Source of the DNA: a virus
Virus record (IMG/VR): IMGVR_UViG_3300023174_000003
Location: 1 to 64,000 of that record
Reading direction: 5' to 3' (one strand)
Length of the DNA: 64,000 bases
Shown here: one piece after another, positions 36,837-55,663 of the stretch
Position numbering within the stretch: the first letter of the stretch is position 1
Layout: each line of letters begins with the position of its first letter
Position numbers and translations under genes: made by a program
The notes under the pieces: generated by a model
Databases searched by the model: none
What the model was told of the DNA's origin: nothing
Seen by the model: the letters and a program-made list of their open reading frames with translations, nothing else

Positions 36837-36862
36837 AACAGTTTAACGTCTTGTTTAGGACG
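36837..36862 (-). promoter_or_regulatory. family-1 pseudoknot leader element, copy 1
   Basis: CGUC-CUAAACAA-GACG-UUAAAC-UGUU. Confidence 0.8.
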
Positions 36863-36872
36863 ATAAATACTT

Positions 36873-37808
36873 TTAAGTTGTTTTGTAAGAAAGTTGAGGA
36901 AGACTGGTGCCAGGGAATGGAACAAACCCTGCATTTAGCATAGCGTCAAACAGATCCCATGCATCATCTGCAGTGTAGTGTTCCTGTGGTTTGTACGTAC
37001 GCCAGTGCGACATAGGTGCCATAGATCCCGACTTGGTATACAAGACAAGGAACCGACCCTTTGACTTATGGTCTTCTGGTGGAGCATACCACCAAGCTGC
37101 AGCGTTATCAGGAGCAGACCCTCTGTACTGATCACGTACCTCAGAGCGTTTAACCAATAGCTCACGATACTTCTTGAACCAAGTTAAATGAATGCACCAC
37201 GGCTTATAGTCTTGGATCTCTTGCTGGAACTCAGACAGGTCTGTTAGCTGCCGCTGGAATGAACCACAAGAACAATAAGGTTCTTTGACTTTTTGTTGTG
37301 CAGTAACTTCTTCTAGATCAGAGTCCATATCTACTTCCTCATCAGGATCATAGAATCCTTCTGGTGCAATCAAGTGGCCAAGATCTGTATGCTCACTTTG
37401 CAACATAGCCTTAAGCTTGTCTTTACTCTTAAGGTAAATGAACTTATCAATCCATTCTCTTTGGAGTAACGCTTGACCAGTCTTGTGACTTAGCTGGTGT
37501 TGATAATGCCAACCTTTTAGCATTACGTAAGAGTTGTTATGCCAGATACCAGGACCTCTATAGTTAGGACCAAGGTATGCAAAGAAGTTTTTAAGACGAC
37601 CAGTAAATTGTTGGTGTGCATTAATTACACTTTGCTTAGGCACTAATAGCTCAGTGCCATCTTGATGTACTACAACAATATTGTTATCACGTAGATAGAT
37701 CCCACTTACAGTGGTCTCATCAAACTCTGGTAGTGCACGTCTAATATTGCTAATAGAATAGATTTGTTTTTGTGCAGAATTGAATTGGTCTTGAATTAGA
37801 TTGTTCAT
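36873..37808 (-). CDS. SWIM Zn-finger protein
   Basis: CSCGSF...WCIH. Confidence 0.7.
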   Translation of the reverse strand: MNNLIQDQFNSAQKQIYSISNIRRALPEFDETTVSGIYLRDNNIVVVHQDGTELLVPKQSVINAHQQFTGRLKNFFAYLGPNYRGPGIWHNNSYVMLKGWHYQHQLSHKTGQALLQREWIDKFIYLKSKDKLKAMLQSEHTDLGHLIAPEGFYDPDEEVDMDSDLEEVTAQQKVKEPYCSCGSFQRQLTDLSEFQQEIQDYKPWCIHLTWFKKYRELLVKRSEVRDQYRGSAPDNAAAWWYAPPEDHKSKGRFLVLYTKSGSMAPMSHWRTYKPQEHYTADDAWDLFDAMLNAGFVPFPGTSLPQLSYKTT

Positions 37809-37829
37809 TGGTTAAAATTGAGTTGATGA

Positions 37830-38045
37830 TTAGATGAACAGGTCGTCCTGCTCTGCCGGAATCTTAGCAGAGCTAGGGGCAGAGTCGTAGGCCCTCTTAC
37901 CAATTCTTAATAAACCATAGGCAAGCATCCCCCACGTAACAGGGTTAGCAAGTGATGCTGCAAGGAGTGTTCCCCCTACGGCATAGGGTGCCGTGTGTTT
38001 GATAGCAGCTTTTAGTTTTGTGTTCATGGTGGTAGCATTGAGCAA
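37830..38045 (-). CDS. small membrane protein
   Basis: hydrophobic segment. Confidence 0.5.
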   Translation of the reverse strand: MLNATTMNTKLKAAIKHTAPYAVGGTLLAASLANPVTWGMLAYGLLRIGKRAYDSAPSSAKIPAEQDDLFI

Positions 38046-38047
38046 AG

Positions 38048-38320
38048 TTGTTCAGGCTTATGGAAATCAAAGTCATGCCCTTAAGTAAATTAGAACTTGA
38101 CCCAGGGTTAGGTGATTTGTTCTGGAAAGAAAAAGTACAACGAGAGATTAACGAGAATACCTCAGTCAATGAACTAAGACAGTACGCATCTCTGTTGTTG
38201 TCTCTTGCAGTACAACGTCAAGGAATAATAAAAGGACTTGCAAAAGAATTGCTCACTATCAAACATCTATTGATAGATGATAGTGAGCTTGCCAATCCTG
38301 AGATTACACCAGAGGGTTAG
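38048..38320 (+). CDS. helical hypothetical protein, possibly a divergent NblA-like
   Basis: lone plus-strand ORF; L.D.F...K.QREI.....NELR..A.LL pattern. Confidence 0.5.
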   Translation: MFRLMEIKVMPLSKLELDPGLGDLFWKEKVQREINENTSVNELRQYASLLLSLAVQRQGIIKGLAKELLTIKHLLIDDSELANPEITPEG

Positions 38321-38811
38321 ATGAGTGAATCATCTATTTTTAAATACTTATTACGATATAAAGAATTATGTATTTTTAAATATTTAGTTACGGTATAAGT
38401 ACAACAACCCATTTCAGCTGCAACATTAACACGAGATAAACCTTGAGATTTAAGTCTTAAAATTTTTTCTTGTTGTTCATTGGTTAATTTCCAAGGATGT
38501 TGACCAAGTTTTGCACGATTGCGGTCATGCATATCTTTAATATTATCTGTTTGAGTTCCAGGCAATAAATGCAATGGGTTGCAACAAGATCTATTATCAC
38601 AAGTATGCCGAATAATAATCTTTGGAGTTAATGCAATATTATAATGATGCTCATAACTCCAGCGATGTGCAAGCATTGCTTTTTGGTTGCGTTTTGGATA
38701 ACCATACCCATCTTTATGCCAGCGTTTACCTATGTACGGCCAACAAGAATTAAGACCCCCGAAGGGGTCAATCATTGCTAGCAAACTAATAGAGTTGTTT
38801 GCTATTGTCAT
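38317..38811 (-). CDS. HNH homing endonuclease with C-terminal HTH
   Basis: CWPY.G....DGYG...AHR.SY...IRHTCDNRSCCNPLHL..GT..DN..DM. Confidence 0.9.
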   Translation of the reverse strand: MTIANNSISLLAMIDPFGGLNSCWPYIGKRWHKDGYGYPKRNQKAMLAHRWSYEHHYNIALTPKIIIRHTCDNRSCCNPLHLLPGTQTDNIKDMHDRNRAKLGQHPWKLTNEQQEKILRLKSQGLSRVNVAAEMGCCTYTVTKYLKIHNSLYRNKYLKIDDSLI

Positions 38812-39881
38812 TAGATTAATCCATCATCCTCTCCAGTAACGGGATCCCTGGCACTAGGCAAAGCAGTTACATCAACTTCTTTGGTGTTACGTAGTTCAGG
38901 TAGTATCTCTACTCCCTCTCGTATTCCATAGGCACCACCAAGCTTTGCAGCATCCTGCTTAGCATGTTGATTGATATAGTCCTGGAACATTACCTGGTAC
39001 TTCCAAGTTGATTCCCGATCTTCATCAGGAATACTCATTGCATTTAATGATTCAACGGCGGCTTCTTGTGTGCTGTAATCAGGGATATCAAACCCTTCAA
39101 TAGCACATATCTCAACGTTATTAGCGCCGCGCATGTCATTAACAAGCTGAGGTGCAAATACTGTTGTTGCATAAAACTTCTCGTTAAACATCAGTGGAAT
39201 CTCAGAGTCAAGTGCCTTGCTCAAACACTTAGACATCTCCTTCTCATACAACTTAATCTTCTCGGCTGCATCAGTACCATTAAGTCCTTTTAAGGTAAGG
39301 ACCATAGGTAGCTTATGTGCCCGTTGATTTTCTGTAGTAAGGATAAAGATTAAGTATTTGGTACGTACACTGTACTTACGTTTGTACATCTCGCCTTTAC
39401 TGTTAGCAAGATCAGCAGCAACCTTGTCATTATCCCAGAGGGATTTGACTTGATCGTTGTCAAACGTACCAATTGTTTGCCTCATCCCTGTGGTTTCCTC
39501 AACCATGAGGGGAGAACGTAGAAGGACTTGAACTCTAGGCTGAGTGAAATTGAGTCCTTCTTCAATTGAAGTATTGGGAGCCATACCGAAAGTCTGCTTG
39601 TAGTTCCAGATAACAGAACCCTTAGCAAATTGATCTTCAGTTGCGCTCCATCCGCAAGTATCCAGGTCTGATATCCGCACGAACCAACCTCTTGTCTTAG
39701 ATTTGTTGAGGGGTTGGATTGTGACGAAGTTCTGGTATCCTGAAACAAATTCTTTAGATTGAAATAACGCAAAAGATTCCAAGCCACGTGTTGCAATAGC
39801 AGAAGTTTTTTTCATAGCCATGGTCGAGGTTAGTTTCGTAGTAGGTGAGTTGGTCGTGGTGTCAAACAAAGTGCTAGTCAT
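38811..39881 (-). CDS. conserved replication/recombination-region protein (DUF5895-like, tentative)
   Basis: PRVQVLLRSPL, R..YLIF.L..N..AHK.P.VLTLKG; start reset to the ATG after family-1 copy 2. Confidence 0.6.
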   Translation of the reverse strand: MTSTLFDTTTNSPTTKLTSTMAMKKTSAIATRGLESFALFQSKEFVSGYQNFVTIQPLNKSKTRGWFVRISDLDTCGWSATEDQFAKGSVIWNYKQTFGMAPNTSIEEGLNFTQPRVQVLLRSPLMVEETTGMRQTIGTFDNDQVKSLWDNDKVAADLANSKGEMYKRKYSVRTKYLIFILTTENQRAHKLPMVLTLKGLNGTDAAEKIKLYEKEMSKCLSKALDSEIPLMFNEKFYATTVFAPQLVNDMRGANNVEICAIEGFDIPDYSTQEAAVESLNAMSIPDEDRESTWKYQVMFQDYINQHAKQDAAKLGGAYGIREGVEILPELRNTKEVDVTALPSARDPVTGEDDGLI

Positions 39882-39901
39882 TTGAGTAGCGAGGTTGGAC
39901 A

Positions 39902-39930
39902 CAGGCAGTTTAGCGTCATGCCTGAGGACG
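39902..39930 (-). promoter_or_regulatory. family-1 element, copy 2
   Basis: CGUC-CUCAGGCAU-GACG-CUAAAC-UGCCUG. Confidence 0.8.
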
Positions 39931-39949
39931 GGCCAGCTATCTTAACAAT

Positions 39950-40750
39950 TCAGAAAGGTGCGTTGGCATCGTTGGAGTCAAAGCGCCCAGGTAGATCAGG
40001 CAAGTTGTTACCTACGTTCTGTCCCCAGGGCTCAGCAATTTCATCAGCAGTCTTACCACCCCATAGGCTTTGAGGTGCATCAGATGAGGTTGTGGTCTGT
40101 GCTTTGATACCACCAGAAGACTCTTGGACCTTGGGTGCTAGTGTCATTGATACCAACTGGATCTTGGTATTAGATTTACGTTCTTTAGTTTCTTTATCTA
40201 ACCAAGAATCAGTAATCAATCTTCCCTGGATCGTAAGCCCAGTTCCTTTCCTTGTCATGTTTGCTAGTAGTTCAGCTTGATTAAATCTGTCAGTAGCTGA
40301 GTTAATAGCATAGAAGTTAAACAGGTCAGCTTGACCTTTACCAGTGCTAACAGATAGTGATTGATTAACAATCATTAAACCTTCTGCAGTTGTTCTGAAT
40401 GAACGTTCATCTTCTTGGTTAATATCTTTTACACAGCGACCACTAAGGATAACTGTATTTAAGATAGGGAATGATTCATTAACAATAGCTATTACGCCAC
40501 CATGTAATGAGAATGTGCGTGACTCTAAATCATGACGTAGCTTTGCACCATGGATATAGATGTGTGATCCCTTAGGAGTCTTTAGAAAACGCTCTGAACT
40601 TTTACCGTAGACATTTAGTTCAATAGCCGTTGCCGACTTATTGCCTACTGGAGGTAGTAGTACAGGACAACGTACGGCTGTATTAGTAGCCGATATGTAA
40701 ACCTCAGTTGGTTCTTGAGTTGTTTGTGCGCAAAGACTTGCAAAGTTCAT
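39950..40750 (-). CDS. ssb: single-stranded DNA-binding protein (tandem OB-fold)
   Basis: NTVILSGR...KGTGLTIQGRL..DSW.DKET.E.KS; acidic APF C-terminus; start reset to ATG 40750. Confidence 0.8.
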   Translation of the reverse strand: MNFASLCAQTTQEPTEVYISATNTAVRCPVLLPPVGNKSATAIELNVYGKSSERFLKTPKGSHIYIHGAKLRHDLESRTFSLHGGVIAIVNESFPILNTVILSGRCVKDINQEDERSFRTTAEGLMIVNQSLSVSTGKGQADLFNFYAINSATDRFNQAELLANMTRKGTGLTIQGRLITDSWLDKETKERKSNTKIQLVSMTLAPKVQESSGGIKAQTTTSSDAPQSLWGGKTADEIAEPWGQNVGNNLPDLPGRFDSNDANAPF

Positions 40751-40771
40751 GGAATTAAAAAGAAAAGTGGA

Positions 40772-40798
40772 AGACAGTTTAACGTCATGCCTAGGACG
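40772..40798 (-). promoter_or_regulatory. family-1 element, copy 3
   Basis: CGUC-CUAGGCAU-GACG-UUAAAC-UGUCU. Confidence 0.8.
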
Positions 40799-40803
40799 GA
40801 TCC

Positions 40804-42630
40804 TTAGTGGCAATCCAGCCAAGTATAACCTACCTTTGCATCCCCTTCTATAAGGCAACGAAAGTTAAAGGTTTGCTGCGCCTGGGGGAAAGCAGCCAGT
40901 GCTTGCTCCTTAACTTTTTCTACATGTTCAGGTAGACAAGCAAGCTGGACCTCGTCATGAACCATGGCAAGCTGCATCCAATCCTTGTCATAGAACAAGT
41001 CAATGTTATTTAAATTGTTATGGATATTGACAACAACTTGTTTCATAAGTATTGCGCCAGCTGATTGCAATAGTACATTCAATCCTTTAAATGCAGAACG
41101 ACAATAGAGTTGCCGACGATCAAGGCCAATAAGATATCCCCTGGTATCAATGTTATCTTGTATCTGTTGTTTAAGTAACTTAAGTGCAGGCACACCATTC
41201 ATGAATGAATTTATTGCAGTACTTCCTATGTCCTTAAGAACTGTTGCATCTTTTTCATTCGGATCAATAATGGTACCAGCCTTGACACCACCACATCCAT
41301 ACAACAATCCATAGAGTAAACGCTTAGATATATCCCTGGTACTTACACCAAATTGTTCTTGGTTATAAGTATGGATATCAACGTCTGGGTTAATGACCAT
41401 ATTACCGTACTCACCATTATCCCAACAAGCCAAGTAACCAGCAAGACATCTAAGCTCCAATGCTTTTGCATCAACACCAATAAGTACATAACCTTTTGGT
41501 GCATGGAATAAGTCACGGCATTCTTTACCGTAAGGACTATATGCCCCTGGCACCTGAGCCATGTTAGGTTCTTTATGACTACATCTTCCAGTGACACATC
41601 CATTTGTATTCATGCTGCCATGCATCTTGTTATCTTCTTTGCTTACAAGTTTTAACCAAGCATTTTGACCATCAGCTATTTGCCCTAGCCTTTTCTTAAT
41701 CAACTGGTACTCAGCTAATAGCTTAGCTTCTGGAAATGGTAAGGCTTCTAGTACATCATCATCAAGTGATGCATTGCCTTTGTCTGTTGTTTTATCAGGC
41801 TGCCAACCATACTTAGTATGTAACCGTTCGACTACCTGCTTGCGTGAACCAGGATTAAATTTGTTTTCTATTTGTTTAGTAAATGGTACACCTGCAACAT
41901 ACCCACGGCCTTTATTGTTTACTTTCGGAATGAATACAGACTCTTCCGTAATAGGCGGAAAAGCTTTTTGTAATGCCTCCTCAAGTTCTTCTTGTCTTTG
42001 CCTAAGCGTATCCACCAGATCAAGAGCTTTGTCCACATCAAATGGAAAGCCAGTAATAATCTGGTCGTTAATTGCTTCAGCAAATTCATGTTCAAGTTTA
42101 AGAGACGACTCAGGGTAGTTCTTAGATTGAATGAAGTTAAACAACTTGTAAGTAACACTTACATCTTGTCTACAGTATTCTGCCATCTCCTCTGAGTATG
42201 CAGAGAAATCTTTGAATTCAATCTTGTTATCAGATAGTCTATAACCCCAAGCTTTAAGTGATGCAGATCCTCTAAGCTTTATTGGTACCTCAGGATACAC
42301 ACTAAGATCAAGATCATACAAGACTTCGCGTGGCCAGATAAGCCTGGTGCATACCAAGGTATCAATAAGTCGAGCCGCTCTAAAGGTATAGAATGGATAA
42401 AGTTTTCTTATGACTGGGATGTCATAGAAGATTAAGTTATGTCCAATTAAAACATTAGCCTTAGCCATGTGCTGCAGGCCGTCAGCAATAGCATCAGGCC
42501 CGTAAGTAAAAGTTTGTTTTCTCTGGACATCATATATAACAATGCAGAAGATTTCCTCTACTTTATCATAGAGCCCATTGGTTTCAATATCTATGACATA
42601 AATCTTTTCATTTGCGGTAAAGTTGTTCAT
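40804..42630 (-). CDS. polA: family A DNA polymerase with 3'-5' exonuclease (T7-like)
   Basis: DIET exo I; DAKALELR motif A; KRLLYGLLYG motif B; VHDEVQ motif C. Confidence 0.97.
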   Translation of the reverse strand: MNNFTANEKIYVIDIETNGLYDKVEEIFCIVIYDVQRKQTFTYGPDAIADGLQHMAKANVLIGHNLIFYDIPVIRKLYPFYTFRAARLIDTLVCTRLIWPREVLYDLDLSVYPEVPIKLRGSASLKAWGYRLSDNKIEFKDFSAYSEEMAEYCRQDVSVTYKLFNFIQSKNYPESSLKLEHEFAEAINDQIITGFPFDVDKALDLVDTLRQRQEELEEALQKAFPPITEESVFIPKVNNKGRGYVAGVPFTKQIENKFNPGSRKQVVERLHTKYGWQPDKTTDKGNASLDDDVLEALPFPEAKLLAEYQLIKKRLGQIADGQNAWLKLVSKEDNKMHGSMNTNGCVTGRCSHKEPNMAQVPGAYSPYGKECRDLFHAPKGYVLIGVDAKALELRCLAGYLACWDNGEYGNMVINPDVDIHTYNQEQFGVSTRDISKRLLYGLLYGCGGVKAGTIIDPNEKDATVLKDIGSTAINSFMNGVPALKLLKQQIQDNIDTRGYLIGLDRRQLYCRSAFKGLNVLLQSAGAILMKQVVVNIHNNLNNIDLFYDKDWMQLAMVHDEVQLACLPEHVEKVKEQALAAFPQAQQTFNFRCLIEGDAKVGYTWLDCH

Positions 42631-42841
42631 CTTGAATTGATAGGCCATGCTTTGACAATTGTTCATCGTTTTCTTGAATCCATTTAAGTATACTGATGAT
42701 CCCTGTTTTTTGAGGATGAGATAACACCTTACTTAAATCTGTTTCACTTAGTACAGGAATCAGATGGAACTTGTTGTTCTCTTGGTCTGCTTGGATGGCA
42801 TGGGGTGTACCATTCAAGATGCAGCTAATGACATAAGCCAT
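42608..42841 (-). CDS. hypothetical protein
   Basis: ORF track. Confidence 0.55.
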   Translation of the reverse strand: MAYVISCILNGTPHAIQADQENNKFHLIPVLSETDLSKVLSHPQKTGIISILKWIQENDEQLSKHGLSIQDEQLYRK

Positions 42842-42934
42842 GGAGGTTAAGACTAATAATCAAGGTGTTTTCCTGGTACTCCCCCAGGGGTCTGGGGGAA
42901 GCACAAGAACATCTAAATGATAACCAGTTTTATT

Positions 42935-43717
42935 TTATTTGCAACCAACTAGTTCCTTTACCTTCTTAACGGTATTATAACCAACAAACTTACCTTGCTT
43001 CTTGCGTAGCTGTATCGCTTTGCTTGCATTAGAGCCAGCCCTCTGGGACCCATGGACCAATAGTGCAAAGGGCTTAGTGCCAAGGCAATGGCTATCATCA
43101 TGGTCTATCTCTAGGCCTTGGGCCGCTGCCTCTTCCTCTGTGTACACAACGTATGCCCTACGGGTAAAGATATGTTCACGCCCTGGAATCAAGCTGTCAA
43201 GTTGACCGCCTATTGATGCAGTCAAGAAGAAGTTACTTGGTATGTTCTCAGCTTGGTTCAACCACATGTTAAGTGATTTAGTAAATGCATAGAAGGTTTT
43301 ATTAAGACGTTGCCTTGCTACCTCCATCCATGCCATAAGATATTGCTCTGTCCAGAAGTCACCTGACTCATGGACTCTTACAAGATCCTCATCATATGGA
43401 TCAATAGAAGCCAAGATAAGTGCAGCCATATTATCTACGGCATGCTTTGAATCAGTATAGGCTGCATCACGTAATAGATCCCAGTTATACCAACGGGCAT
43501 CACGTACGTTAGGCCTAGTCTCTGCCATAGCAGCAAAGCATCTGTACTCTGCAACGTCTTCAATTAGTGCAGCAAGACTATCATTGATCTTACCTGTGTG
43601 CCGGTCAGCAAATGTTCTGCATACACCAGCGCCAGGACATGCATAGCCAGCAGGTAAACTAAAGATTAGTCTTTTGCTGAGCTTAGCATTACCACGGGAA
43701 AACTTGAGAAGGTTCAT
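42935..43717 (-). CDS. GP88-like protein
   Basis: GNAKL...FSLPAG.ACPGA..C, CFA, VRVHESGDF, FYAFTKS. Confidence 0.75.
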   Translation of the reverse strand: MNLLKFSRGNAKLSKRLIFSLPAGYACPGAGVCRTFADRHTGKINDSLAALIEDVAEYRCFAAMAETRPNVRDARWYNWDLLRDAAYTDSKHAVDNMAALILASIDPYDEDLVRVHESGDFWTEQYLMAWMEVARQRLNKTFYAFTKSLNMWLNQAENIPSNFFLTASIGGQLDSLIPGREHIFTRRAYVVYTEEEAAAQGLEIDHDDSHCLGTKPFALLVHGSQRAGSNASKAIQLRKKQGKFVGYNTVKKVKELVGCK

Positions 43718-43741
43718 TGTTCAGTTGAATGTGAGTTGGAT

Positions 43742-43767
43742 AGCAGTTTAACGTCATGCTTAGGACG
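43742..43767 (-). promoter_or_regulatory. family-1 element, copy 4
   Basis: CGUC-CUAAGCAU-GACG-UUAAAC-UGCU. Confidence 0.8.
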
Positions 43768-43786
43768 CGGTAAAACCTACATTGGC

Positions 43787-43981
43787 CTATGCTAAGAGTT
43801 CCATTAGGAATAACAGACGTTTGTTGCAGGCTTCTGATAGCTTGATCTGTTCCTCGGTCATAGGAGTCTGTTGATTGTACAGTGATTCACCTATGTCACC
43901 CATAAGCTTTACATTAGTTAACTTCTTGCGCAGCCTTGCTTTTTCGGCTTGGCTTAGTCGCTGGTACAGAGGCAGCATCAT
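43787..43981 (-). CDS. hypothetical protein
   Basis: ORF track. Confidence 0.5.
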   Translation of the reverse strand: MMLPLYQRLSQAEKARLRKKLTNVKLMGDIGESLYNQQTPMTEEQIKLSEACNKRLLFLMELLA

Positions 43982-44216
43982 GTGAGTTCAGTTGATTGGT
44001 GAGTTGTTTAATACCAGTTACAAAATAAGCATAGTCCCTAGTTTCTGTAATGATTGTAAGTTTGTCACATACATTACATATACCAGTCCAGCATGATGAA
44101 CATCCTACAGAATACACACCATACTTATCGCCACAATCACTGCATGTTACATAGGCATCTTTTAGTTTTTTAATGAGTTGTTTGATTTGTTTCTTGGTCA
44201 TGTCACATGCCTCCAT
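43914..44216 (-). CDS. Cys-rich hypothetical protein
   Basis: C..CG.KYG.YSVGCSS.W.G.C.VC. Confidence 0.6.
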   Translation of the reverse strand: MEACDMTKKQIKQLIKKLKDAYVTCSDCGDKYGVYSVGCSSCWTGICNVCDKLTIITETRDYAYFVTGIKQLTNQLNSHDAASVPATKPSRKSKAAQEVN

Positions 44217-44548
44217 GCTTTACGTAGAATGATTCGGTTAATAGTAGCAGAAGATAACCCATATTTTTCTGCAATTGTTTTTTGCATTATTCCTGTACGT
44301 GCCAAGGTACGGATGTCACGTACGTTATTCTCAGTAAGAATTGCATTTTGATTTGCAGATCCTACATTCTTTATGGCACCCTTGGACCCAAGCTTAGGAC
44401 CAGGCTTGTTGATTGCATAGGTACAAATGGTTTTAAACCTGGTACCACAATCCAAACATCTACGATACTGCCACATCTGATCAATGTGATCTTGATGTTG
44501 AGTGCAGGTAACCCTTGTGTTTTTGCTACGGCAGTTACGACACTTCAC
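44198..44548 (-). CDS. Zn-ribbon (NrdR N-terminal-like) plus HTH protein
   Basis: MKCRNC.S.NTRV...RRCLDCG.RF.T; QKTIAEKYGLS..TI.RI. Confidence 0.75.
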   Translation of the reverse strand: MKCRNCRSKNTRVTCTQHQDHIDQMWQYRRCLDCGTRFKTICTYAINKPGPKLGSKGAIKNVGSANQNAILTENNVRDIRTLARTGIMQKTIAEKYGLSSATINRIILRKAWRHVT

Positions 44549-47786: not shown

Positions 47787-47817
47787 TAGATTTATTTGAT
47801 TTGAGTAAGGTGGATAA

Positions 47818-47851: not shown

Positions 47852-47872
47852 ACAATATAACGTTAGTATTAT

Positions 47873-48208: not shown

Positions 48209-48507
48209 TAGATGTCGTTAGTGGGAGTAAGTTCTAGATCTGAGGACAGAAGCATAATGCCTGCCTCAGCAATAAGCTTGCGAGTTGCATCTTGTCCAAA
48301 AAATTTAAGTAGATCTTGCAACATACTTTTTTTATCATCTGTGTATCCAGTTTCAAATATCAATGCACAAAGGGTAAGCAATTTAGCAACAGGTAGTTGT
48401 CCTATTATTTCATCAGCAGCCAATGGAATTAGATCATCCCATTTGTCCTCAGGTATTGCAGCATACAATGCATCAACTTGTTCTTGATAGTCAGCAGAAA
48501 TTTCCAT
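48205..48507 (-). CDS. hypothetical protein
   Basis: ORF track. Confidence 0.55.
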   Translation of the reverse strand: MEISADYQEQVDALYAAIPEDKWDDLIPLAADEIIGQLPVAKLLTLCALIFETGYTDDKKSMLQDLLKFFGQDATRKLIAEAGIMLLSSDLELTPTNDIY

Positions 48508-48582
48508 GGTGTTGAATGAATGGACAAGGATAGTGTAGTGGAACTAAGGCCAGTGGTTAGCTGACCTTAGCTTTATTTAATG

Positions 48583-48948
48583 TTATGTTACAGGCGTAGC
48601 TTGAGTCTCATGAGTCTCACCCATCATGCCATTCTCCTTGAGGCGATCAAGCATTTGACACATGATCGTTGCATGCTCATGGGTTTTATCCATAAATGCC
48701 TGAGCACGGGCAGCTGATATAGTATGGACTGTACCGTTGGCTTCTACATAAGCCCAACTTCCGTCAGGCTGTGGCTGCCCCTGGAGCGCAAGCCGTTCTG
48801 AGTTACGTACATAACGTAGCTCTAGATTGTGACGGTCAGTTAATCCTTCGTTATCAATCCAGGTTGCACCTAGGTTATAACGTTTGTCATCATCCATGTA
48901 GGCATGGACTTGTGGAATGAGGCCAGTAAAGCAAGATAAAATTGACAT
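48583..48948 (-). CDS. hypothetical protein
   Basis: ORF track. Confidence 0.6.
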   Translation of the reverse strand: MSILSCFTGLIPQVHAYMDDDKRYNLGATWIDNEGLTDRHNLELRYVRNSERLALQGQPQPDGSWAYVEANGTVHTISAARAQAFMDKTHEHATIMCQMLDRLKENGMMGETHETQATPVT

Positions 48949-48970
48949 GAGTTAAGTGCAGTGGAATGTC

Positions 48971-49003
48971 TGGGGCTTACGTCAGGTTGGCGCTGACTGC
49001 CCA
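48971..49003 (-). promoter_or_regulatory. family-5 element, copy 2
   Basis: UGGG-CA-GUCAG..CUGAC-GUAAGC-CCCA. Confidence 0.7.
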
Positions 49004-49011
49004 ATGGTTGG

Positions 49012-50715
49012 TCAGTTAGATACTAGGTCCTTCTCACGGATCTGTAAAGCTTCTTGGAATATACCTTGATATTTCTCACGTTCTATAGATGTCAATGATC
49101 TGTTACTTGGTCCTGCAATCTGTTCTACATGCATGGTGCCATTGGATACCTTGAGTTGTATTGTGAATACAGGCTTGTTGTCAACCATACATAAGACAAT
49201 GAATTGTTTCTTAGCTTTTATAAGATTGGCATATGTTGATGATGCACCTACACAATTACGTACTGCTTGCCCCCATTGTGCAAGCTGATGAGTATCTATG
49301 GGTTGAATGAATGTCCAGATCTCATCAGCAAGTTTTACTTTGACAGGAACAGGGAATAAATCCTGTGGTAGTTTTTGGTTTGGGTTACTTATCTTCCAGG
49401 CTTCTGCTTGTACATGATCATGGAACTCAGTGTAACGCCAACGCCTAGGCGGAGTAAGTTCTTTACCTGCAGCTAATACATTATTAATCATGTCCATTGT
49501 ATCTCTAAATAAATAGAATGTAAGCATATAACAATTCAGTTGATTATCTTTATGCCTATTACTTGGCTTTTCATCTTCTATATATTTGTTTAGCATATTA
49601 AATAATGATGCCACTGGTAGGTTGGTTGCTAGCCATTTCTTTGCTAACGAATCAGTTTTATAATAAGCGATTGAATGGATACGGCCAATAGATAAAAACA
49701 TATTGGTTTGTATTCCAGTCTGTAAATAATCCATAGGGCAGTCAGGATATATATCAAGGATATCTAGAATCCAAGCCAAAGTATGTATAAGTTTTTTGTG
49801 TATAGAACTAATTTCTTTCTTGGACTTAGTGGCTGGATCATTGAACGTATTAATAATTAATTGACATTGCTCATTGATGTAACGTTTAAACCATGGCTTA
49901 CCAAGTTTCTCTTGCATAACAGTAAATGATCTATCTAAATTTTGGGTATACCGTAGCCTTAGTATTTCTATATACAATTCAAAGCTAGGCACAATGTTTT
50001 GATTCTTTGGTATTGATGTATGATGTAATTCTAATAGTTCATGGTAATTATTTTTAGCCGTATCTATTCTGTCCCATACACCACCATCAGTATAAGTAGG
50101 TATTGAATTTATAATGGCTTCTCTGAATGGTTGTATTACACTTGGTCTTATCTCTTTACCTTTTGTATTGTATCCTTTGAAGTTACCATGTTCCCAATAG
50201 TGTGATTGACATCCATTAGATATATCTTCTGCTGTTACAAACTTTGTATAGACATTGAACTCTATGCGTCCATACTTTTTGATAGTAGTATCTTTTCTAT
50301 TTATGTCTCTAATGTATACCTGTTTGCATGTAGTTTCTGTATTCTTAAATGCATAAGTAAACCCATAGATATAATCTTCACCTGGGTTAGGTAACCATGC
50401 TGCAATCCACAAGGATTCGTAGTGGTACACAACAGCTTTAAGTTTTGTTGTGGCTACCATATCTTTATCATATGTAACACGACTAAAAGTATGATAGCGA
50501 TATGGAACTTCTTCTTGGTTAATAGCAATTATTGCTGCAAGTAAATTGCTAGGCATAACAATGTGTGCAGGGATAATATCATTAGGCAAGCCAAGATGAA
50601 AGCGTGGTTTCTTAGGCTTGCTTACAGGAGTAGTAGCAGCTTTAGCCAAAGCTTTTAACTTTGGATCATAAGCTAATAGTTCTGTGCGCAGGTTGGCGGG
50701 TAGTTGGAATTGCAT
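49012..50715 (-). CDS. PcfJ-like domain protein
   Basis: EFHDH...P.DTHQLAQWGQAVRNCVG...Y......TIQL...VEQI.G..N. Confidence 0.8.
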   Translation of the reverse strand: MQFQLPANLRTELLAYDPKLKALAKAATTPVSKPKKPRFHLGLPNDIIPAHIVMPSNLLAAIIAINQEEVPYRYHTFSRVTYDKDMVATTKLKAVVYHYESLWIAAWLPNPGEDYIYGFTYAFKNTETTCKQVYIRDINRKDTTIKKYGRIEFNVYTKFVTAEDISNGCQSHYWEHGNFKGYNTKGKEIRPSVIQPFREAIINSIPTYTDGGVWDRIDTAKNNYHELLELHHTSIPKNQNIVPSFELYIEILRLRYTQNLDRSFTVMQEKLGKPWFKRYINEQCQLIINTFNDPATKSKKEISSIHKKLIHTLAWILDILDIYPDCPMDYLQTGIQTNMFLSIGRIHSIAYYKTDSLAKKWLATNLPVASLFNMLNKYIEDEKPSNRHKDNQLNCYMLTFYLFRDTMDMINNVLAAGKELTPPRRWRYTEFHDHVQAEAWKISNPNQKLPQDLFPVPVKVKLADEIWTFIQPIDTHQLAQWGQAVRNCVGASSTYANLIKAKKQFIVLCMVDNKPVFTIQLKVSNGTMHVEQIAGPSNRSLTSIEREKYQGIFQEALQIREKDLVSN

Positions 50716-50738
50716 GTGAGTGAATAATGAGTGGGATG

Positions 50739-50767
50739 CAGGCAGTTTAACGTCATGCCTGAGGACG
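50739..50767 (-). promoter_or_regulatory. family-1 element, copy 5
   Basis: CGUC-CUCAGGCAU-GACG-UUAAAC-UGCCUG. Confidence 0.8.
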
Positions 50768-50938
50768 TGGACCTAGTCGTATTCGATACCGAATTGCACC
50801 CGTTCTTGGTACGTAGTATGGAACTTGGTTAGCTTAGGTAAGCGCTTAGCAAATCCAAAGGCTAGGTATATGCGTCCCCGTGGTCCACGGAAGACAAGAT
50901 ACCAAGGCCTGAACTCAATAATGAATCCAATCATTCCG

Positions 50939-51220
50939 TTAGATCTCCGATAGGTCGACATCGATCCAGTCAATGTCTTGTTCACGTACCCATGCTACTA
51001 ACTCACTGAACGCAACTTTGTTATCAGTGGTTTCAAGTTTGTCTGGGTCAGTGGGAGGTTGGACCTCTACAACAAAGTTAGCATGGCATAGGCCAGGCTT
51101 GAACTCTGCTGGTTCCTCCCACGTGGCAGGACTTACCTGGATCCTATCATCAATCCATGCTTCCACATAAACGAAGTACTCGCCATCTAATGGAATGACA
51201 TCAATGTTCTCAATGATCAT
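50939..51220 (-). CDS. acidic hypothetical protein
   Basis: ATWEEPAEF.PGLC. Confidence 0.6.
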   Translation of the reverse strand: MIIENIDVIPLDGEYFVYVEAWIDDRIQVSPATWEEPAEFKPGLCHANFVVEVQPPTDPDKLETTDNKVAFSELVAWVREQDIDWIDVDLSEI

Positions 51221-51222
51221 GA

Positions 51223-51435
51223 TCAGACCTCCTGTAGTTGTTGTGTAGCCACAGCCACTGGCTGCTGAAACGCAGAGCCAGGACCATAGCGTTGGACTAG
51301 ATCTGGGAATGCACCTAGGATACGTTGACGGTTAGTGGGATCAGCATACCGTAGTGCGTTGGCCATAGTACTGACGAACTTGCCGCCGTACTTGGTCATG
51401 GTCTCGGTCATGTGATAAATCTCAGTGCTGGTCAT
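51223..51435 (-). CDS. small phage protein (YGG.FV..LA.A...AD..N...I..AFP type)
   Basis: start reset to the ATG after family-1 copy 6. Confidence 0.65.
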   Translation of the reverse strand: MTSTEIYHMTETMTKYGGKFVSTMANALRYADPTNRQRILGAFPDLVQRYGPGSAFQQPVAVATQQLQEV

Positions 51436-51456
51436 GAGTTGAGTTGCGGTGGGACA

Positions 51457-51485
51457 CAGGCAGTTTAACGTCATGCCTGAGGACG
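51457..51485 (-). promoter_or_regulatory. family-1 element, copy 6
   Basis: identical to copy 7 over 55 bp (51431-51485 = 52817-52871). Confidence 0.85.
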
Positions 51486-51496
51486 GGTCAGCTTAG

Positions 51497-51733
51497 TTAC
51501 AGAATCTTTATGTTGCGTTTGCTTAGGCCAGTACCAGGCAATCCAATGGATGCATGGACGCCTGACTCACGAGCATTCAGTGTGAGTTGCAATGGACCTA
51601 ACTGGAATGATTTAGAGAATGACTTGATGCCATTCTCCGTAATGTTGATACCATTCCAAGTCTTGTCAAAGTTGAACAATGATTTCTTGTGAGCCATCTT
51701 AGATACCTTCAATGCATGGGTGGATGTTGTCAT
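51497..51733 (-). CDS. DUF4236-like protein
   Basis: INITENGIKSFS.....G....N....G..ASIGLPGTGLS. Confidence 0.65.
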   Translation of the reverse strand: MTTSTHALKVSKMAHKKSLFNFDKTWNGINITENGIKSFSKSFQLGPLQLTLNARESGVHASIGLPGTGLSKRNIKIL

Positions 51734-51902
51734 CGTTCATATTTGTCATGGTAAATTTTTCACCAGTGACAGGATCAATGAAGCCTCCAACGAATCCGAT
51801 CCCATTACGGTCAGCGGATTCTTTCATTAGTGCCACAAACCTCATCGCTTCAAGACGACGTAAGCTTGTGGCATCAGGCACAGTCAGATCAGAGTTAGAC
51901 AT
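51699..51902 (-). CDS. hypothetical protein
   Basis: ORF track. Confidence 0.55.
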   Translation of the reverse strand: MSNSDLTVPDATSLRRLEAMRFVALMKESADRNGIGFVGGFIDPVTGEKFTMTNMNDDNIHPCIEGI

Positions 51903-51934
51903 TGGATGGGGAAGTTAAGGTTTGATTAATGAAC

Positions 51935-52243
51935 TTAGGATTTTACTAGATTCTGTTTGACATCCATACTAAATATCATGTCAGCATCAGTGGGATCTTC
52001 ATATCCTGTAACATCGATAGGATCAATGTCAGGAAAGCAGACCGGCTGGTCGAATTCAACATTGACTAGTACCGTCAGATGTTCCTTGGACAGGCTTACC
52101 CAATCTTCAGTCAACCAATTGATGGCATGTTGCTTGTTCACCAGATATACGGTGCGATCATGCCATACGTCATCGTTCTTGATCTTGTAATCAATGATGG
52201 CACCGAAGTGTGTACCACCGATAGGCAGTGGGGCATTAGTCAT
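51935..52243 (-). CDS. hypothetical protein
   Basis: ORF track. Confidence 0.55.
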   Translation of the reverse strand: MTNAPLPIGGTHFGAIIDYKIKNDDVWHDRTVYLVNKQHAINWLTEDWVSLSKEHLTVLVNVEFDQPVCFPDIDPIDVTGYEDPTDADMIFSMDVKQNLVKS

Positions 52244-52279
52244 TAGCTTTCGTGGTGATGGTGGACAGGGGTGAGGGGA

Positions 52280-52579
52280 CTATGCGAATGGCGTAAAGCC
52301 TGGTGCATCTATCAACTCTTGTAGTGTGCATACAGCATCTGCTGCTAGCTCACTGAACACAACCTTGTTATCAGTGACATATTCATTTGACTGATCCTCT
52401 ACTACTTCACATCCGCTATCTTCTAGCTCATCGCAGAACTCATCCCATGTCATGTGCTTGCCATAGACATGAGCGTATCTGCCCGTGGCATCTGCCACTA
52501 ATGCAACATAGTGATTCATTGTACTCATTTCAGGGGTGGTTGTACTCATTACTTGTGTAGCTCCTGGTGTTGTTGCCAA
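52280..52579 (-). CDS. acidic hypothetical protein (start uncertain)
   Basis: ORF track. Confidence 0.55.
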   Translation of the reverse strand: MATTPGATQVMSTTTPEMSTMNHYVALVADATGRYAHVYGKHMTWDEFCDELEDSGCEVVEDQSNEYVTDNKVVFSELAADAVCTLQELIDAPGFTPFA

Positions 52580-52821
52580 TGGGCAGCATGAATCTCTGCT
52601 GCTGTAACAGCGGACTCACCTCCGGTGTTGTCATAGAGATACTCAGGTGTTGGGTCATAGCCCGTCACCTCTTCTAATGCATCGATGCAGTCTGAGATAG
52701 TATCCAGCATCCACTGTGGTGCAGAATACATTTGGTCTTTGGCTTCCTCTTGTTTGAGGACAGCGTTCATCTTTTTGATCCAGCGTTCGCATGCGCACTC
52801 TGGAGTCTTGTCTAAAGTCAT
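52549..52821 (-). CDS. hypothetical protein
   Basis: start reset to the ATG after family-1 copy 7. Confidence 0.6.
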   Translation of the reverse strand: MTLDKTPECACERWIKKMNAVLKQEEAKDQMYSAPQWMLDTISDCIDALEEVTGYDPTPEYLYDNTGGESAVTAAEIHAAHWQQHQELHK

Positions 52822-52842
52822 GAGTTGAGTTGCGGTGGGACA

Positions 52843-52871
52843 CAGGCAGTTTAACGTCATGCCTGAGGACG
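52843..52871 (-). promoter_or_regulatory. family-1 element, copy 7
   Basis: CGUC-CUCAGGCAU-GACG-UUAAAC-UGCCUG. Confidence 0.85.
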
Positions 52872-54490: not shown

Positions 54491-54495
54491 TTTAA

Positions 54496-54750: not shown

Positions 54751-54755
54751 GATTG

Positions 54756-54987: not shown

Positions 54988-54996
54988 TAAATTGAT

Positions 54997-55077
54997 GCTG
55001 TGCAGGTGCCCATCTCCTGCGGACTAGGCAATACTGAGTAGGGGATTCGATCCCCCGGCATCACGCCTGGTACTCAG
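54997..55077 (-). promoter_or_regulatory. tRNA-like junction (55034-55077) plus family-3 unit (54997-55032)
   Basis: CUGAGUA..GGC(GUGAU)GCC.GGGG(AUCGAAU)CCCC-UACUCAG then AUUGCCUAGUCCGCAGGAGAUGGGCACCUGC. Confidence 0.7.
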
Positions 55078-55244
55078 AACGGAATCTCATCAAACGACTC
55101 CACACATGAATCAGTAGCTGGATCATCAATGACCCAGCCTTCTTCCTCTGCTTCTGCTTCTAACACCCATTGAGGTGTGTTATTTGCTAACCAGATATCA
55201 TGAAGGAGTTGTTCTTGATGAATGTTGCTAGGTTGAATACGCAT
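55074..55244 (-). CDS. 56-aa acidic protein ending FDEIPF (below cutoff)
   Basis: MRIQPSNIHQEQLLHDIWL...DSCVESFDEIPF*. Confidence 0.6.
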   Translation of the reverse strand: MRIQPSNIHQEQLLHDIWLANNTPQWVLEAEAEEEGWVIDDPATDSCVESFDEIPF

Positions 55245-55254
55245 TTAACTGTGA

Positions 55255-55336
55255 GCTGTGCAGGTGCCCATCTCCTGCGGACTAGGCAATGACTGTGGGA
55301 GGGTTTGCACCTCCCAACCCGCTTTAACGGATCAGC
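55255..55336 (-). promoter_or_regulatory. T-loop junction (55292-55336) plus family-3 unit (55255-55290)
   Basis: GCUG-AUCCG(UUAAAG)CGGGU-UGGGAGG(UGCAAAC)CCUCCCA-CAGU; 36-bp exact repeat of 54997-55032. Confidence 0.72.
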
Positions 55337-55559
55337 AACCAAGCATCTCGTCCACGTAGGACTTGATGACTTGGAGTTGGTCTCGGTTAAGTGTCTGGCT
55401 ACGGCCATACTCCAAAAGGTCAAGGACCTGGAGCATGACGCTTTCGCCAGCCTCTTCACGAGACGGTACGCCACACATGTCGAAGATCTCATTACGAGAC
55501 ATCTCAGTGATGTCAACGCAATCGATCTTACGAACGGTGGCGATGGTGGTCTTAGTCAC
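55332..55559 (-). CDS. hypothetical protein
   Basis: ORF track; its stop lies in the junction stem. Confidence 0.6.
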   Translation of the reverse strand: MTKTTIATVRKIDCVDITEMSRNEIFDMCGVPSREEAGESVMLQVLDLLEYGRSQTLNRDQLQVIKSYVDEMLGC

Positions 55560-55579
55560 GGTGTTACTCCGTAGGTGAG

Positions 55580-55613
55580 CTTGGACTTACACTGCTGAAG
55601 TGCAGCTGCCAAG
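55580..55613 (-). promoter_or_regulatory. family-5 element, copy 3
   Basis: CUUGG-CA-GCUGC..GCAGU-GUAAGU-CCAAG. Confidence 0.7.
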
Positions 55614-55638
55614 ATCGTGACTGACCACCGAGTTGTCT

Positions 55639-55663
55639 GCTGCGTTTAACGTCCAGCTCGACG
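55639..55663 (-). promoter_or_regulatory. family-1 element, divergent copy 8
   Basis: CGUC-GAGCUG-GACG-UUAAACG-CAGC. Confidence 0.65.

What the first reader, a model, noticed from the sequence alone, without database searches (positions are those of the whole stretch)
36837..55663. Family 1: eight copies of a 25-29 nt H-type pseudoknot with compensatory changes
Seen at 36837, 39902, 40772, 43742, 50739, 51457, 52843 and 55639 (minus strand). Invariant stem 1 CGUC/GACG, then (U/C)UAAAC, then a segment always complementary to the loop. The pairs are CAGGCA/UGCCUG (x4), AGGCA/UGUCU (G-U), AGCA/UGCU, AACA/UGUU and GCUG/CAGC. It precedes both core genes (ssb, the adjacent replication-region gene, GP88-like, PcfJ-like) and tiny ORFs. 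Established: an A-rich loop 3 docking in the stem-1 minor groove is typical of compact pseudoknots, and CGU..ACG-UUAAA resembles the P1+linker of pistol ribozymes, but the pistol catalytic P2/P3 is absent. Inference: stability element, translation enhancer or binding site for a phage protein (compare the T4 gene 32 pseudoknot autoregulation of an SSB).
Basis: partly seen in the sequence, partly recalled or inferred. Interest (0 to 1): 0.88.

Follow-up and report, generated by a model that had tools for sequence, protein, structure and literature searches.

The report
Coremin-like RNA pseudoknots between cyanophage genes
Seven of the eight repeats (the eighth is atypical) are copies of a tiny knotted RNA fold that this lake cyanophage, many unrelated phages and some bacteria place between genes; its core matches the plant-virus 'coremin' RNA that blocks RNA-degrading enzymes, so it probably shields or insulates the message behind it, which is untested in bacteria.

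Summary
All eight copies lie at the stated coordinates on the minus (coding) strand. Seven share one geometry: stem 1 (CGUC/GACG), a C, stem 2 strand a, one base, then YUAAAC, then stem 2 strand b. The copy at 55639-55663 is atypical.

Across S-EIV1-like relatives both stems covary, G-U far outnumbers A-C, and every copy is on the sense strand. It is therefore an RNA H-type pseudoknot, not a DNA site.

It is not private to this phage. The same element occurs in more than 100 IMG/VR contigs and in GenBank phages of Staphylococcus, Mycobacterium, Bacillus, Vibrio and cyanobacteria. It also occurs in many bacterial phyla and inside CRISPR spacers. Rfam 15 has no family for it.

Its fixed core equals the coremin motif (xrRNA-C) of plant and fungal RNA viruses. 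Its natural variation mirrors the published coremin mutagenesis.

Most likely it is a protein-independent mechanical barrier that protects and insulates the downstream cistron. This is inferred, not shown. The gene-32-like operator and pistol readings are not supported.

This scan's follow-up agents reached the same coremin reading on at least 27 other genomes. I found no paper that reports it in phages.

The parts
52843..52871 (-). Pseudoknot copy with a 9-nt hairpin loop and a 6-bp stem 2. The ATG of a 90-aa ORF lies at 52821, 27 nt after the linker.
   Evidence: covariance-model hit 39.2 bits
51457..51485 (-). Pseudoknot copy with a 6-bp stem 2. The ATG of a 70-aa ORF lies at 51435. The knot and its 27-nt leader are identical to those of the 52871 copy, so the cassette was duplicated or homogenised.
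50739..50767 (-). Pseudoknot copy with a 6-bp stem 2. The ATG of the 567-aa PcfJ-like gene lies at 50715. An upstream ORF stops 5 nt before stem 1.
43740..43767 (-). Pseudoknot copy with an 8-nt loop and a 4-bp stem 2. The ATG of the GP88-like gene lies at 43717.
   Evidence: 52.3 bits
40771..40798 (-). Pseudoknot copy with a 5-bp stem 2 that includes one G-U. It starts 5 nt after the stop codon of the family-A DNA polymerase gene. The ssb ATG lies at 40750. This site is conserved before ssb in S-EIV1 and in other relatives, with a different stem 2.
39902..39930 (-). Pseudoknot copy with the linker CUAAAC and a 6-bp stem 2. The ATG of the DUF5895 gene lies at 39881.
36835..36862 (-). Pseudoknot copy with a 4-bp, A-U-rich stem 2. 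The ATG of a 37-aa hydrophobic ORF lies at 36815.
   Evidence: 50.7 bits
55639..55663 (-). Atypical copy at the head of the early arm. It has the same stem 1 and linker, but a 6-nt loop whose first base is G, a 4-bp stem 2 shifted by one base, and no ATG behind it. Membership is uncertain.
   Evidence: not found by model R1; orthologue at L019:12-51
36813..52842 (-). The G-poor, unstructured leaders without a Shine-Dalgarno sequence (about 20 nt each) that join each canonical knot to its ATG. There is one leader per copy within this span.
   Evidence: leader G 5.5%, 0 of 40 with SD-like words; no stable hairpin after the knot

Best explanation
The repeats are transcribed as part of the long leftward early/replication message. 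Each folds into a 28-29-nt H-type RNA pseudoknot:
- stem 1 of 4 bp (CGUC/GACG);
- loop 1, an invariant C;
- stem 2 of 4-6 Watson-Crick or G-U pairs, formed between the hairpin loop and the bases just after the linker;
- one junction base;
- loop 3, YUAAAC.

This is a Watson-Crick form of the coremin fold (xrRNA-C) known from plant and fungal RNA viruses.

By analogy, I infer that the knot acts without a dedicated protein, as a mechanical barrier to machines that move 5' to 3' along RNA. Candidates are RNase J, RNase E tracking in from a 5' end, and ribosomes arriving from the upstream cistron.

In this phage lineage it is typically placed 5-7 nt after the upstream stop codon and 24-28 nt before the next ATG. 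In that position it would cut the polycistronic message into units, each keeping its own protected 5' edge and an unstructured ribosome landing zone.

Shown: the fold, its RNA-strand specificity, its wide distribution and its sequence identity to the coremin core. Inferred: the barrier and stabiliser function, and the enzymes that it blocks.
For: Fold:
- On 73 distinct copies from the window, S-EIV1 and 14 IMG/VR relatives, 93% of cells pair. Seven of 10 pairs show double changes, and 0 of 500 shuffles reach the covariation score.
- Stem 1's bottom pair is C-G 60, U-A 7, G-C 5, A-U 1. No cell is unpaired.
- In a set chosen without regard to stem 1, 33 of 39 non-consensus stems still pair 4 of 4.

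RNA level:
- G-U 21 against A-C 2 in stem 2.
- All 76 model hits lie on the gene-sense strand.

Same site, different stem 2: the copies before ssb, GP88, PcfJ and a small MFE... ORF carry different paired sequences in different phages.

Coremin link:
- BNYVV coremin has the same stem 1, the same first loop base C and the same UUAAACU spacer start (PMC10520033, PMC6546385).
- Positions fixed in the phage copies are those whose mutation abolishes Xrn1 stalling: the three A, the C and U after them, loop-1 C and the closing C-G.
- Positions that vary are those reported as tolerated: the first two linker bases, including the natural U-to-A and U-to-C variants, the second pair from the loop (U-A to A-U in 3 copies) and the bottom pair. 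The third pair, whose swap coremin tolerates, never varies here.
- An engineered Watson-Crick coremin stalls Xrn1 and stimulates frameshifting, and the screen that found it ran in E. coli (PMC10321173).

Breadth argues for a self-contained fold:
- 141 of 150 pattern matches in IMG/VR have stem 2 paired.
- 49 of 121 matches in bacterial genomes do, against about 8 expected by chance.
- It is found in GenBank phages of many hosts.

Context fits demand for expression: before ssb here, and before capsid scaffolding genes in Enterococcus, Ruminococcus, Finegoldia and Staphylococcus (pro)phages.
Against: - No RNA 5'-end data. The only RNA runs found are assembled contigs and say nothing about ends.
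- Coremin and its Watson-Crick variant need a second hairpin right after the spacer to stall Xrn1. The window copies have none (downstream folding energy about 0 to -1.3 kcal/mol in most, -4.7 at two).
- The coremin loop rule (Y, G ... A, D) is not met at its second base.
- A bona fide copy sits in a Vibrio phage. From general knowledge, gamma-proteobacteria lack RNase J, so RNase J cannot be the only target.
- The very tight spacing to the ATG in this lineage (median 27 nt, sd 4) hints at a translation-linked role that a pure barrier does not require.
- The 5-nt mode after stop codons could reflect an effect on terminating ribosomes instead.
Confidence: 0.5

Rival explanations
1. Translation-initiation element. 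The knot marks the 5' edge of an unstructured standby site and helps 30S or S1 binding on genes that lack a Shine-Dalgarno sequence.
For: - In the S-EIV1-like set the ATG lies 24-28 nt after the linker in 34 of 40 copies.
- None of the 40 has an SD-like word, and the leader is 5.5% G (median 27, sd 4).
- The 3' edge of the knot falls about where a 30S footprint would end (inference).
Against: - In other phages and bacteria the distance to the next ATG runs from 9 to about 90 nt. SD sequences and hairpins can lie in between, and some copies have no gene behind them.
- Only about 20% of all genes in this window have SD-like words, so the lack of SD is not special to these genes.
- Other genes of the same arm have the same C/A-rich leader behind different structures.
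Confidence: 0.2
2. Operator for a trans-acting RNA-binding protein: a phage regulator, or the phage SSB as in T4 gene 32 autoregulation. It would define an early-gene regulon.
For: - Loop and stem-1 bases are invariant.
- The copies stand before ssb and other replication genes.
- Seven or eight copies per genome looks like a regulon.
Against: - The same core occurs in unrelated phages of Firmicutes, Actinobacteria, cyanobacteria and Vibrio, in many bacterial phyla, and in eukaryotic RNA viruses (PMC10520033). No shared phage protein is expected across these (inference).
- The invariant bases are the ones needed for protein-free Xrn1 stalling by coremin.
- The genes behind the copies are unrelated: scaffold proteins, ferritin, UDG-exonuclease.
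Confidence: 0.1
3. Modulator of terminating ribosomes. The knot sits at the mRNA entry channel when the upstream stop codon is in the A site, and it affects termination, recoding or re-initiation.
For: - The commonest distance from the upstream stop to stem 1 is 5 nt (21 of 65), with 13 more at 6-7 nt. That is the spacer range of frameshift and readthrough stimulators (general knowledge).
- Coremin stimulates -1 frameshifting and blocks scanning ribosomes (PMC10321173, PMC10520033).
Against: - I saw no slippery heptamer before the two 5-nt-spaced stops I read by eye (polA and the ORF before PcfJ) and no useful in-frame extension behind the polA stop; this was not scanned systematically (sequences).
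- Spacers range up to 130 nt.
- Many of the 5-nt cases are orthologous sites and so are not independent.
Confidence: 0.05
4. A DNA-level signal: a promoter for a phage or host RNA polymerase, a hairpin promoter, or a recombination site.
For: - It is repeated, in one orientation, just upstream of genes.
- Two cassettes are identical, which suggests exchange at the DNA level.
Against: - G-U 21 against A-C 2.
- Covariation in two interleaved stems.
- Some copies start 5 nt after a stop codon, inside a 55-60-nt gap.
- Sigma-70-like sites in the arm are no more frequent than in shuffles.
- The same core works as RNA in RNA viruses.
Confidence: 0.03
5. A small riboswitch (preQ1-I-like) or a self-cleaving ribozyme (pistol-like).
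For: - It has the size and shape of the smallest pseudoknot aptamers.
- The loops are invariant.
Against: - No Rfam family matches at E<=10 on the 20-kb arm, or at E<=1 on six other loci that carry the motif.
- There is no expression platform: no start-site sequestration and no terminator in the window copies.
- There are no P2/P3 elements.
- The genes behind the copies are unrelated.
Confidence: 0.03

Closest known systems
[quoted passage not shown] 2019, PMC6546385; 2023, PMC10520033)
   Same: - Hairpin 1 has the same stem (C)GUC/GAC(G) with a closing C-G.
- The first loop base is C.
- The spacer starts UUAAACU.
- The same natural spacer variants occur (first U to C, second U to A).
- Tandem copies occur in both.
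- The positions fixed in the phage copies are those essential for Xrn1 stalling.
   Different: - Coremin has a 4-8-nt loop that starts CG and follows YGAD or YGNNAD. Its loop-spacer contact is non-canonical and unresolved.
- Coremin needs a second hairpin directly after a 10-nt spacer.
- Coremin lies mostly in 3' UTRs of eukaryotic RNA viruses.
- The phage element has an 8-9-nt loop that starts CU or CC, and a 4-6-bp Watson-Crick stem 2 beginning right after UUAAAC.
- The phage element has no second hairpin in this window and sits between genes of a dsDNA phage.
Watson-Crick coremin (xrRNA-WCC), selected in an E. coli frameshift screen and found in Sanxia picorna-like virus 5 (Dilweg et al. 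2023, PMC10321173)
   Same: - It has the coremin hairpin 1 and spacer, with a canonical antiparallel stem 2 between the loop and the 3' part of the spacer.
- It stimulates frameshifting without the second hairpin.
   Different: - WCC has a 4-nt loop and only about 3 pairs, which start one base earlier (at the C of UUAAAC).
- WCC still needs hairpin 2 for Xrn1 resistance.
- The phage stem 2 is 4-6 bp, with a one-base junction.
Luteovirid-type frameshifting pseudoknots such as that of BWYV (compared with coremin in PMC10321173)
   Same: - A compact H-type knot with a short stem 1 and a 1-2-nt loop 1 containing C.
- An A-rich loop 3 ending ...AAAC.
- A single junction base.
   Different: - Those knots lie 5-8 nt after a slippery heptamer inside overlapping reading frames.
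- A BWYV knot with an added hairpin does not stall Xrn1.
- The copies here lie in intergenic gaps, with no slippery site seen at the upstream stops I read (not scanned systematically).
T4 gene 32 leader pseudoknot (translational operator for the phage SSB; from general knowledge)
   Same: A 5' pseudoknot followed by an unstructured leader in front of a phage ssb gene.
   Different: - In T4 there is one copy per genome, specific to gene 32, and it nucleates cooperative gp32 binding.
- Here there are seven or eight copies before unrelated genes, and the element is shared with unrelated phages, bacteria and RNA viruses.
Bacterial 5' mRNA stabilisers, such as 5' stem-loops and stalled-ribosome stabilisers in E. 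coli and B. subtilis (from general knowledge)
   Same: The proposed role is the same: a structure at the 5' edge of a cistron that blocks 5'-end-dependent decay.
   Different: Those are simple hairpins or ribosome-binding sites without a conserved sequence. This is one conserved knotted fold reused across phyla.
Pistol self-cleaving ribozyme (Rfam family; Harris et al. 2015, PMC4604425)
   Same: - Short P1 hairpin whose loop pairs with a downstream segment.
- Phage-associated.
   Different: - Pistol has P2, P3 and a cleavage junction, and its pseudoknot partner lies between P2 and P3. None of that is present here.
- No Rfam match.
- The similarity of the linker sequence rests on memory only and was not verified.

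Membership tests
Coremin / xrRNA-C | Hairpin 1: a 3-5-bp stem (C)GUC/GAC(G) with a closing pyrimidine-purine (C-G) pair | tested here: met
   Closing C-G in 73 of 73 copies and the next pair G-C in 73 of 73. The stem is CGUC/GACG in 60 of 73. The bottom pair covaries. Definition taken.
Coremin / xrRNA-C | Loop 1 consensus YGAD (or YGNNAD for 6-nt loops) | tested here: not met
   The first base is C (73 of 73) and the last two are A followed by U, A or C. The second base is U or C, not G, and the loop is 8-9 nt long and Watson-Crick paired.
Coremin / xrRNA-C | Conserved spacer UUAAACUAC, in which the AAACUA part is essential | tested here: met
   YUAAAC followed by U in 70-73 of 73 copies. The next bases vary, because they pair with the loop. 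The match therefore holds for the first seven positions only.
Coremin / xrRNA-C | A second hairpin directly downstream of the spacer (required for Xrn1 resistance) | tested here: not met
   The window copies are followed by G-poor sequence with folding energy of about 0 to -1.3 kcal/mol in most, -4.7 at two. A hairpin does follow in some other phages (L113, L042, L136).
Coremin / xrRNA-C | Stalls a 5'-3' exoribonuclease one nucleotide upstream of hairpin 1 | not testable with these tools
   This needs an enzyme assay or 5'-end mapping. The RNA runs available were contigs only.
xrRNA-WCC (Watson-Crick coremin) | Canonical antiparallel pairing between loop 1 and the 3' part of the spacer | tested here: met
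   Five of 6 stem-2 pairs show double changes and 89% of cells pair. The register differs by one base from the published WCC.
Pistol ribozyme | P1, P2 and P3, a pseudoknot between the P1 loop and the P2-P3 junction, and 10 conserved nucleotides | tested here: not met
   cmscan against Rfam 15 found no match at E<=10 on 36000-56600. There are no P2/P3 elements downstream.
preQ1-I and other small pseudoknot riboswitches | A match to the family model, and an expression platform that overlaps the ribosome-binding site or a terminator | tested here: not met
   No Rfam match. The knot ends about 20 nt before the ATG, and no terminator follows it.
T4 gene 32-type SSB operator | A single operator specific to the ssb leader of one phage group | tested here: not met
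   Seven or eight copies stand before unrelated genes, and the element is present in unrelated phages and bacteria.
-1 frameshift stimulator | A slippery heptamer 5-9 nt upstream, and an overlapping -1 frame | tested here: inconclusive
   The copies lie in intergenic gaps after stop codons. No slippery site was seen by eye at the polA stop or the stop before PcfJ, but the seven upstream regions were not scanned for slippery heptamers or -1 frames.

The most novel reading that the evidence does not exclude
The phage and bacterial element is the natural, fully Watson-Crick form of the coremin fold. It would be a universal, protein-independent 5'-to-3' roadblock that works against bacterial RNase J, 5'-end-dependent RNase E and ribosomes. 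It would be shared, by descent or by repeated invention, between prokaryotic dsDNA viruses, bacteria and eukaryotic RNA viruses. Its abundant covariation would then settle the unresolved pseudoknot architecture of coremin.
Probability: 0.35. Interest if true: 0.9.

Novelty: new variant of a known kind. Interest (0 to 1): 0.78.

Why it matters
Exoribonuclease-resistant RNAs are so far known only from eukaryotic RNA viruses, and the fold of the smallest one, coremin, is still unsolved.

A covarying relative, present many times in phages and bacteria, would do three things. It would give the pairing scheme that mutagenesis could not settle. It would point to a new and very compact class of bacterial mRNA stabiliser or insulator. 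And it would offer a 28-nt part for controlling the stability of single cistrons in operons.

For cyanophage biology, it suggests how a 20-kb early/replication message without Shine-Dalgarno sites is cut into independently expressed units.

Because hosts carry CRISPR spacers against it, it is also a conserved weak point of many phages.

Tried and rejected
- **Rfam.** Gathering thresholds on the whole window, E<=10 on the arm, and E<=1 on six other motif-bearing loci gave nothing relevant. There were only tRNAs and a chance U6atac hit.
- **RNA evidence.** One search for sequencing runs found 18 runs guessed to be DNA (lake and freshwater metagenomes among them) that hold the stretch. It also found two fish-gut metatranscriptome runs with a small share of it. 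Laid on 36500-56400, those two are contigs of a 90-97% relative. They show no starts, ends or strand and may contain DNA. There is therefore no verdict on expression or processing.
- **MAFFT alignment of all 52 copies.** It misplaced the gap inside stem 1. I used gap-free subsets and a model-based alignment instead.
- **Pistol linker similarity.** I could not verify it from the two pistol papers read.
- **Terminator association.** Strict terminator-like sites lie within 70 nt upstream in 7 of 147 copies and within 80 nt downstream in 3 of 147, against 1 and 0 in the controls. This is a minor feature, not a rule.
- **Promoter scan of the arm.** Sites are no more frequent than in shuffles.
- **tRNA-like or RNase P mimic** (CCA-like words after stem 2). 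Considered and dropped: the spacing is variable in C/A-rich sequence.
- **Type III toxin-antitoxin RNA arrays.** Considered for the tandem copies in L113 and dropped: the gene behind them encodes 736 aa, not a small toxin.

Full report
**What the window is.** The window is the first 64 kb of a 79,791-bp IMG/VR virus record with terminal repeats. It is syntenic with Synechococcus phage S-EIV1. Bases 36.7-56.5 kb form a leftward arm of about 45 closely packed genes. Among them are a family-A DNA polymerase, SSB, and DUF5895, GP88-like and PcfJ-like genes.

**The observation.** GACGYTAAAC occurs eight times in the record. All eight lie in this arm, on the coding strand, at the coordinates given. 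About 0.25 matches are expected by chance (my arithmetic).

Seven copies share one geometry: CGUC, then C, then U or UC, then five loop bases, one base, GACG, YUAAAC, and a tail complementary to the loop. Each of these sits 25-29 nt before an ATG. The eighth copy (55639-55663) keeps only stem 1 and the linker. It has another loop and register and no ATG, and my model does not find it. I count it as doubtful.

**Is the structure real?** I fetched 17 loci from relatives through the polymerase and PcfJ-like proteins, and also used S-EIV1 itself.
- A regex found 52 distinct copies.
- A covariance model built on a gap-free alignment found 76 copies, of which 73 are distinct. All lie on the gene-sense strand.
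- On these, 93% of cells pair, and five of six stem-2 pairs show changes on both sides.
- Sliding the partners by one to three columns drops pairing to 17-49%. No shuffle in 500 reaches the covariation score.
- Stem 1, invariant in the window, does vary elsewhere. Its bottom pair is C-G 60, U-A 7, G-C 5 and A-U 1. Its second pair from the loop (third from the bottom) is U-A 70 and A-U 3. It is never unpaired.
- In 200 copies chosen without any condition on stem 1, 33 of 39 non-consensus stems still pair fully.
- In a set chosen without any condition on stem 2, G-U outnumbers A-C by 21 to 2. So the sense strand folds, as RNA.
- At orthologous sites (before ssb, GP88, PcfJ and a small hydrophobic ORF), stem 2 differs between phages but stays paired.

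The H-type pseudoknot is therefore well supported.

**Layout in this lineage.**
- The ATG follows the linker at a median of 27 nt (sd 4).
- The upstream ORF most often stops exactly 5 nt before stem 1 (21 of 65 cases, with 13 more at 6-7 nt; the range runs to 130 nt).
- The leaders are 5.5% G, carry no SD-like word (0 of 40) and have essentially no fold.
- Lack of SD is general in this phage: about 20% of genes have SD-like words.
- Other genes of the arm have similar leaders behind other structures.

**It is not private to this phage.**
In 141 of 150 matches, stem 2 pairs at four or five of five positions.
- Contexts differ. Some copies have C/A-rich leaders as here. In others an SD and ATG follow directly, or hairpins follow, or the copies stand in tandem (L065, L130, and three in L113).
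- In one-genome-per-species bacterial contigs, 49 of 121 matches pair, against about 8 expected. These come from many phyla.
- Two of the bacterial matches are spacers inside large CRISPR arrays.
- BLAST of a 32-nt copy against GenBank phages found it in 83 Staphylococcus records. It also found it in Mycobacterium, Arthrobacter, Bacillus, Lactobacillus, Streptococcus, Moorella, Nostoc, Microcystis, T4-like Synechococcus phages and Vibrio phages.
- In Staphylococcus phage SA13 it lies between the head-morphogenesis gene and the scaffold gene, and stem 1 there has a swapped pair.
- In Vibrio phage D456 stem 1 is changed at two pairs and still pairs.
- Of ten genes downstream of non-cyanophage copies, three encode capsid scaffolding proteins. 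Others encode a ferritin and a UDG-exonuclease fusion.

**What it resembles.** No Rfam 15 family matches.

A full-text search for the invariant decamer led to the coremin motif, or xrRNA-C. This is a 20-nt element of beny-, cucumo- and many other RNA viruses. It stalls Xrn1 one base before its first hairpin, blocks scanning ribosomes and stimulates -1 frameshifting (PMC6546385, PMC10520033, PMC10321173).

BNYVV coremin has the same stem 1, the same first loop base and the same start of the spacer. The match goes beyond sequence identity, as this comparison shows:

| Behaviour in the 73 phage copies | Positions | Coremin mutagenesis |
|---|---|---|
| Never or almost never vary | three linker A's, the C and U after them, loop-1 C, the closing C-G pair | mutation abolishes stalling |
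| Vary | first two linker bases (including the U-to-C and U-to-A variants also seen in natural coremins), the bottom pair of stem 1, the second pair from the loop | change is tolerated |

One position does not follow the pattern: the third pair from the loop never varies here, although coremin tolerates its swap.

Dilweg and colleagues suspected a pseudoknot in coremin but could not define it. They then selected an artificial Watson-Crick version. The phage element is a natural Watson-Crick version with a longer loop and a 4-6-bp stem 2.

It fails two coremin criteria: the loop rule at the second base, and the need for a second hairpin. I therefore call it a structural relative, not a member.

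**Mechanism.** I propose that the knot is a self-contained mechanical barrier at gene boundaries. Its conserved bases are explained by its own tertiary fold, not by a partner protein. This fits its presence in unrelated phages, in bacteria and in RNA viruses.

In cyanobacteria, Firmicutes and Actinobacteria the obvious target is the 5'-exonuclease RNase J (general knowledge). Where RNase J is absent, as in Vibrio, entry of RNase E from a 5' end would be the counterpart.

Placement just beyond the reach of a terminating ribosome and about 20 nt before the next start would leave each cistron with a protected 5' edge and an open landing zone. The position before ssb and before scaffold genes, which need high output, fits this.

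All of this is inference. There are no end-mapping data, the window copies lack the second hairpin, and the fixed spacing to the ATG leaves room for a translation role.

**Rivals.** The rivals are a translation element (0.2), a protein operator (0.1), a modulator of termination (0.05), a DNA signal (0.03), and a riboswitch or ribozyme (0.03).

**Earlier work.** After I had reached the coremin link, I looked up this scan's notes. Follow-up agents had reported the same coremin-like family on at least 27 other genomes, with the same reading. These notes are not independent evidence.

My searches found no paper that reports coremin-like or other exoribonuclease-resistant RNAs in phages or bacteria. 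The library lacks most subscription journals.

Noticed in passing
window 53240-53300, 54060-54120, 56030-56090 (minus strand): A second repeated leader element stands before the ATGs at 53298, 54118 and 56084. It is a G-run followed by a hairpin with a CGC/GCG-type stem and a loop of about 11 nt, and each is again followed by a C/A-rich leader.
   Followed up: no
L148, L170, L185, L259 and others (bacterial contigs): In several distant bacterial phyla the pseudoknot overlaps the stop codon of a conserved tiny ORF (about 22-27 aa, reading MKRF..PR.AHCS.GC...). This could be a leader peptide or a small Cys-rich peptide gene. The stop falls at motif base 14 or 20.
   Followed up: partly
L160 (34 repeats) and L211 (64 repeats): Two bacterial CRISPR arrays each hold a spacer that contains a complete copy of the pseudoknot. 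Hosts therefore target this conserved phage element.
   Followed up: partly
L113:4619-4800: Three tandem copies about 75 nt apart lie in a divergent intergenic region. The first two are each followed at once by a short G-C hairpin and a U-run. This layout resembles the hairpin-1 / spacer / hairpin-2 layout of coremin, or a small stable RNA.
   Followed up: partly
window 55774-56162: Contigs of a close relative in two metatranscriptome runs skip 383-387 bases here. This is an indel between strains at the head of the early arm.
   Followed up: no
window 56294-56311: A bidirectional terminator-like hairpin with U-runs on both strands lies between the gene at 56338-56550 and the early arm.
   Followed up: no
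window 51449-51491 and 52835-52877: The two cassettes are identical from the knot through the first five coding bases. The leader cassette has therefore been copied or homogenised within the genome.
   Followed up: partly
L265:795-860 (Synechococcus phage S-H35): A T4-like cyanomyovirus carries a copy (stem 1 UGUC/GACA, linker AUAAAC) with the same C/A-rich leader and an ATG that is not annotated as a gene.
   Followed up: no
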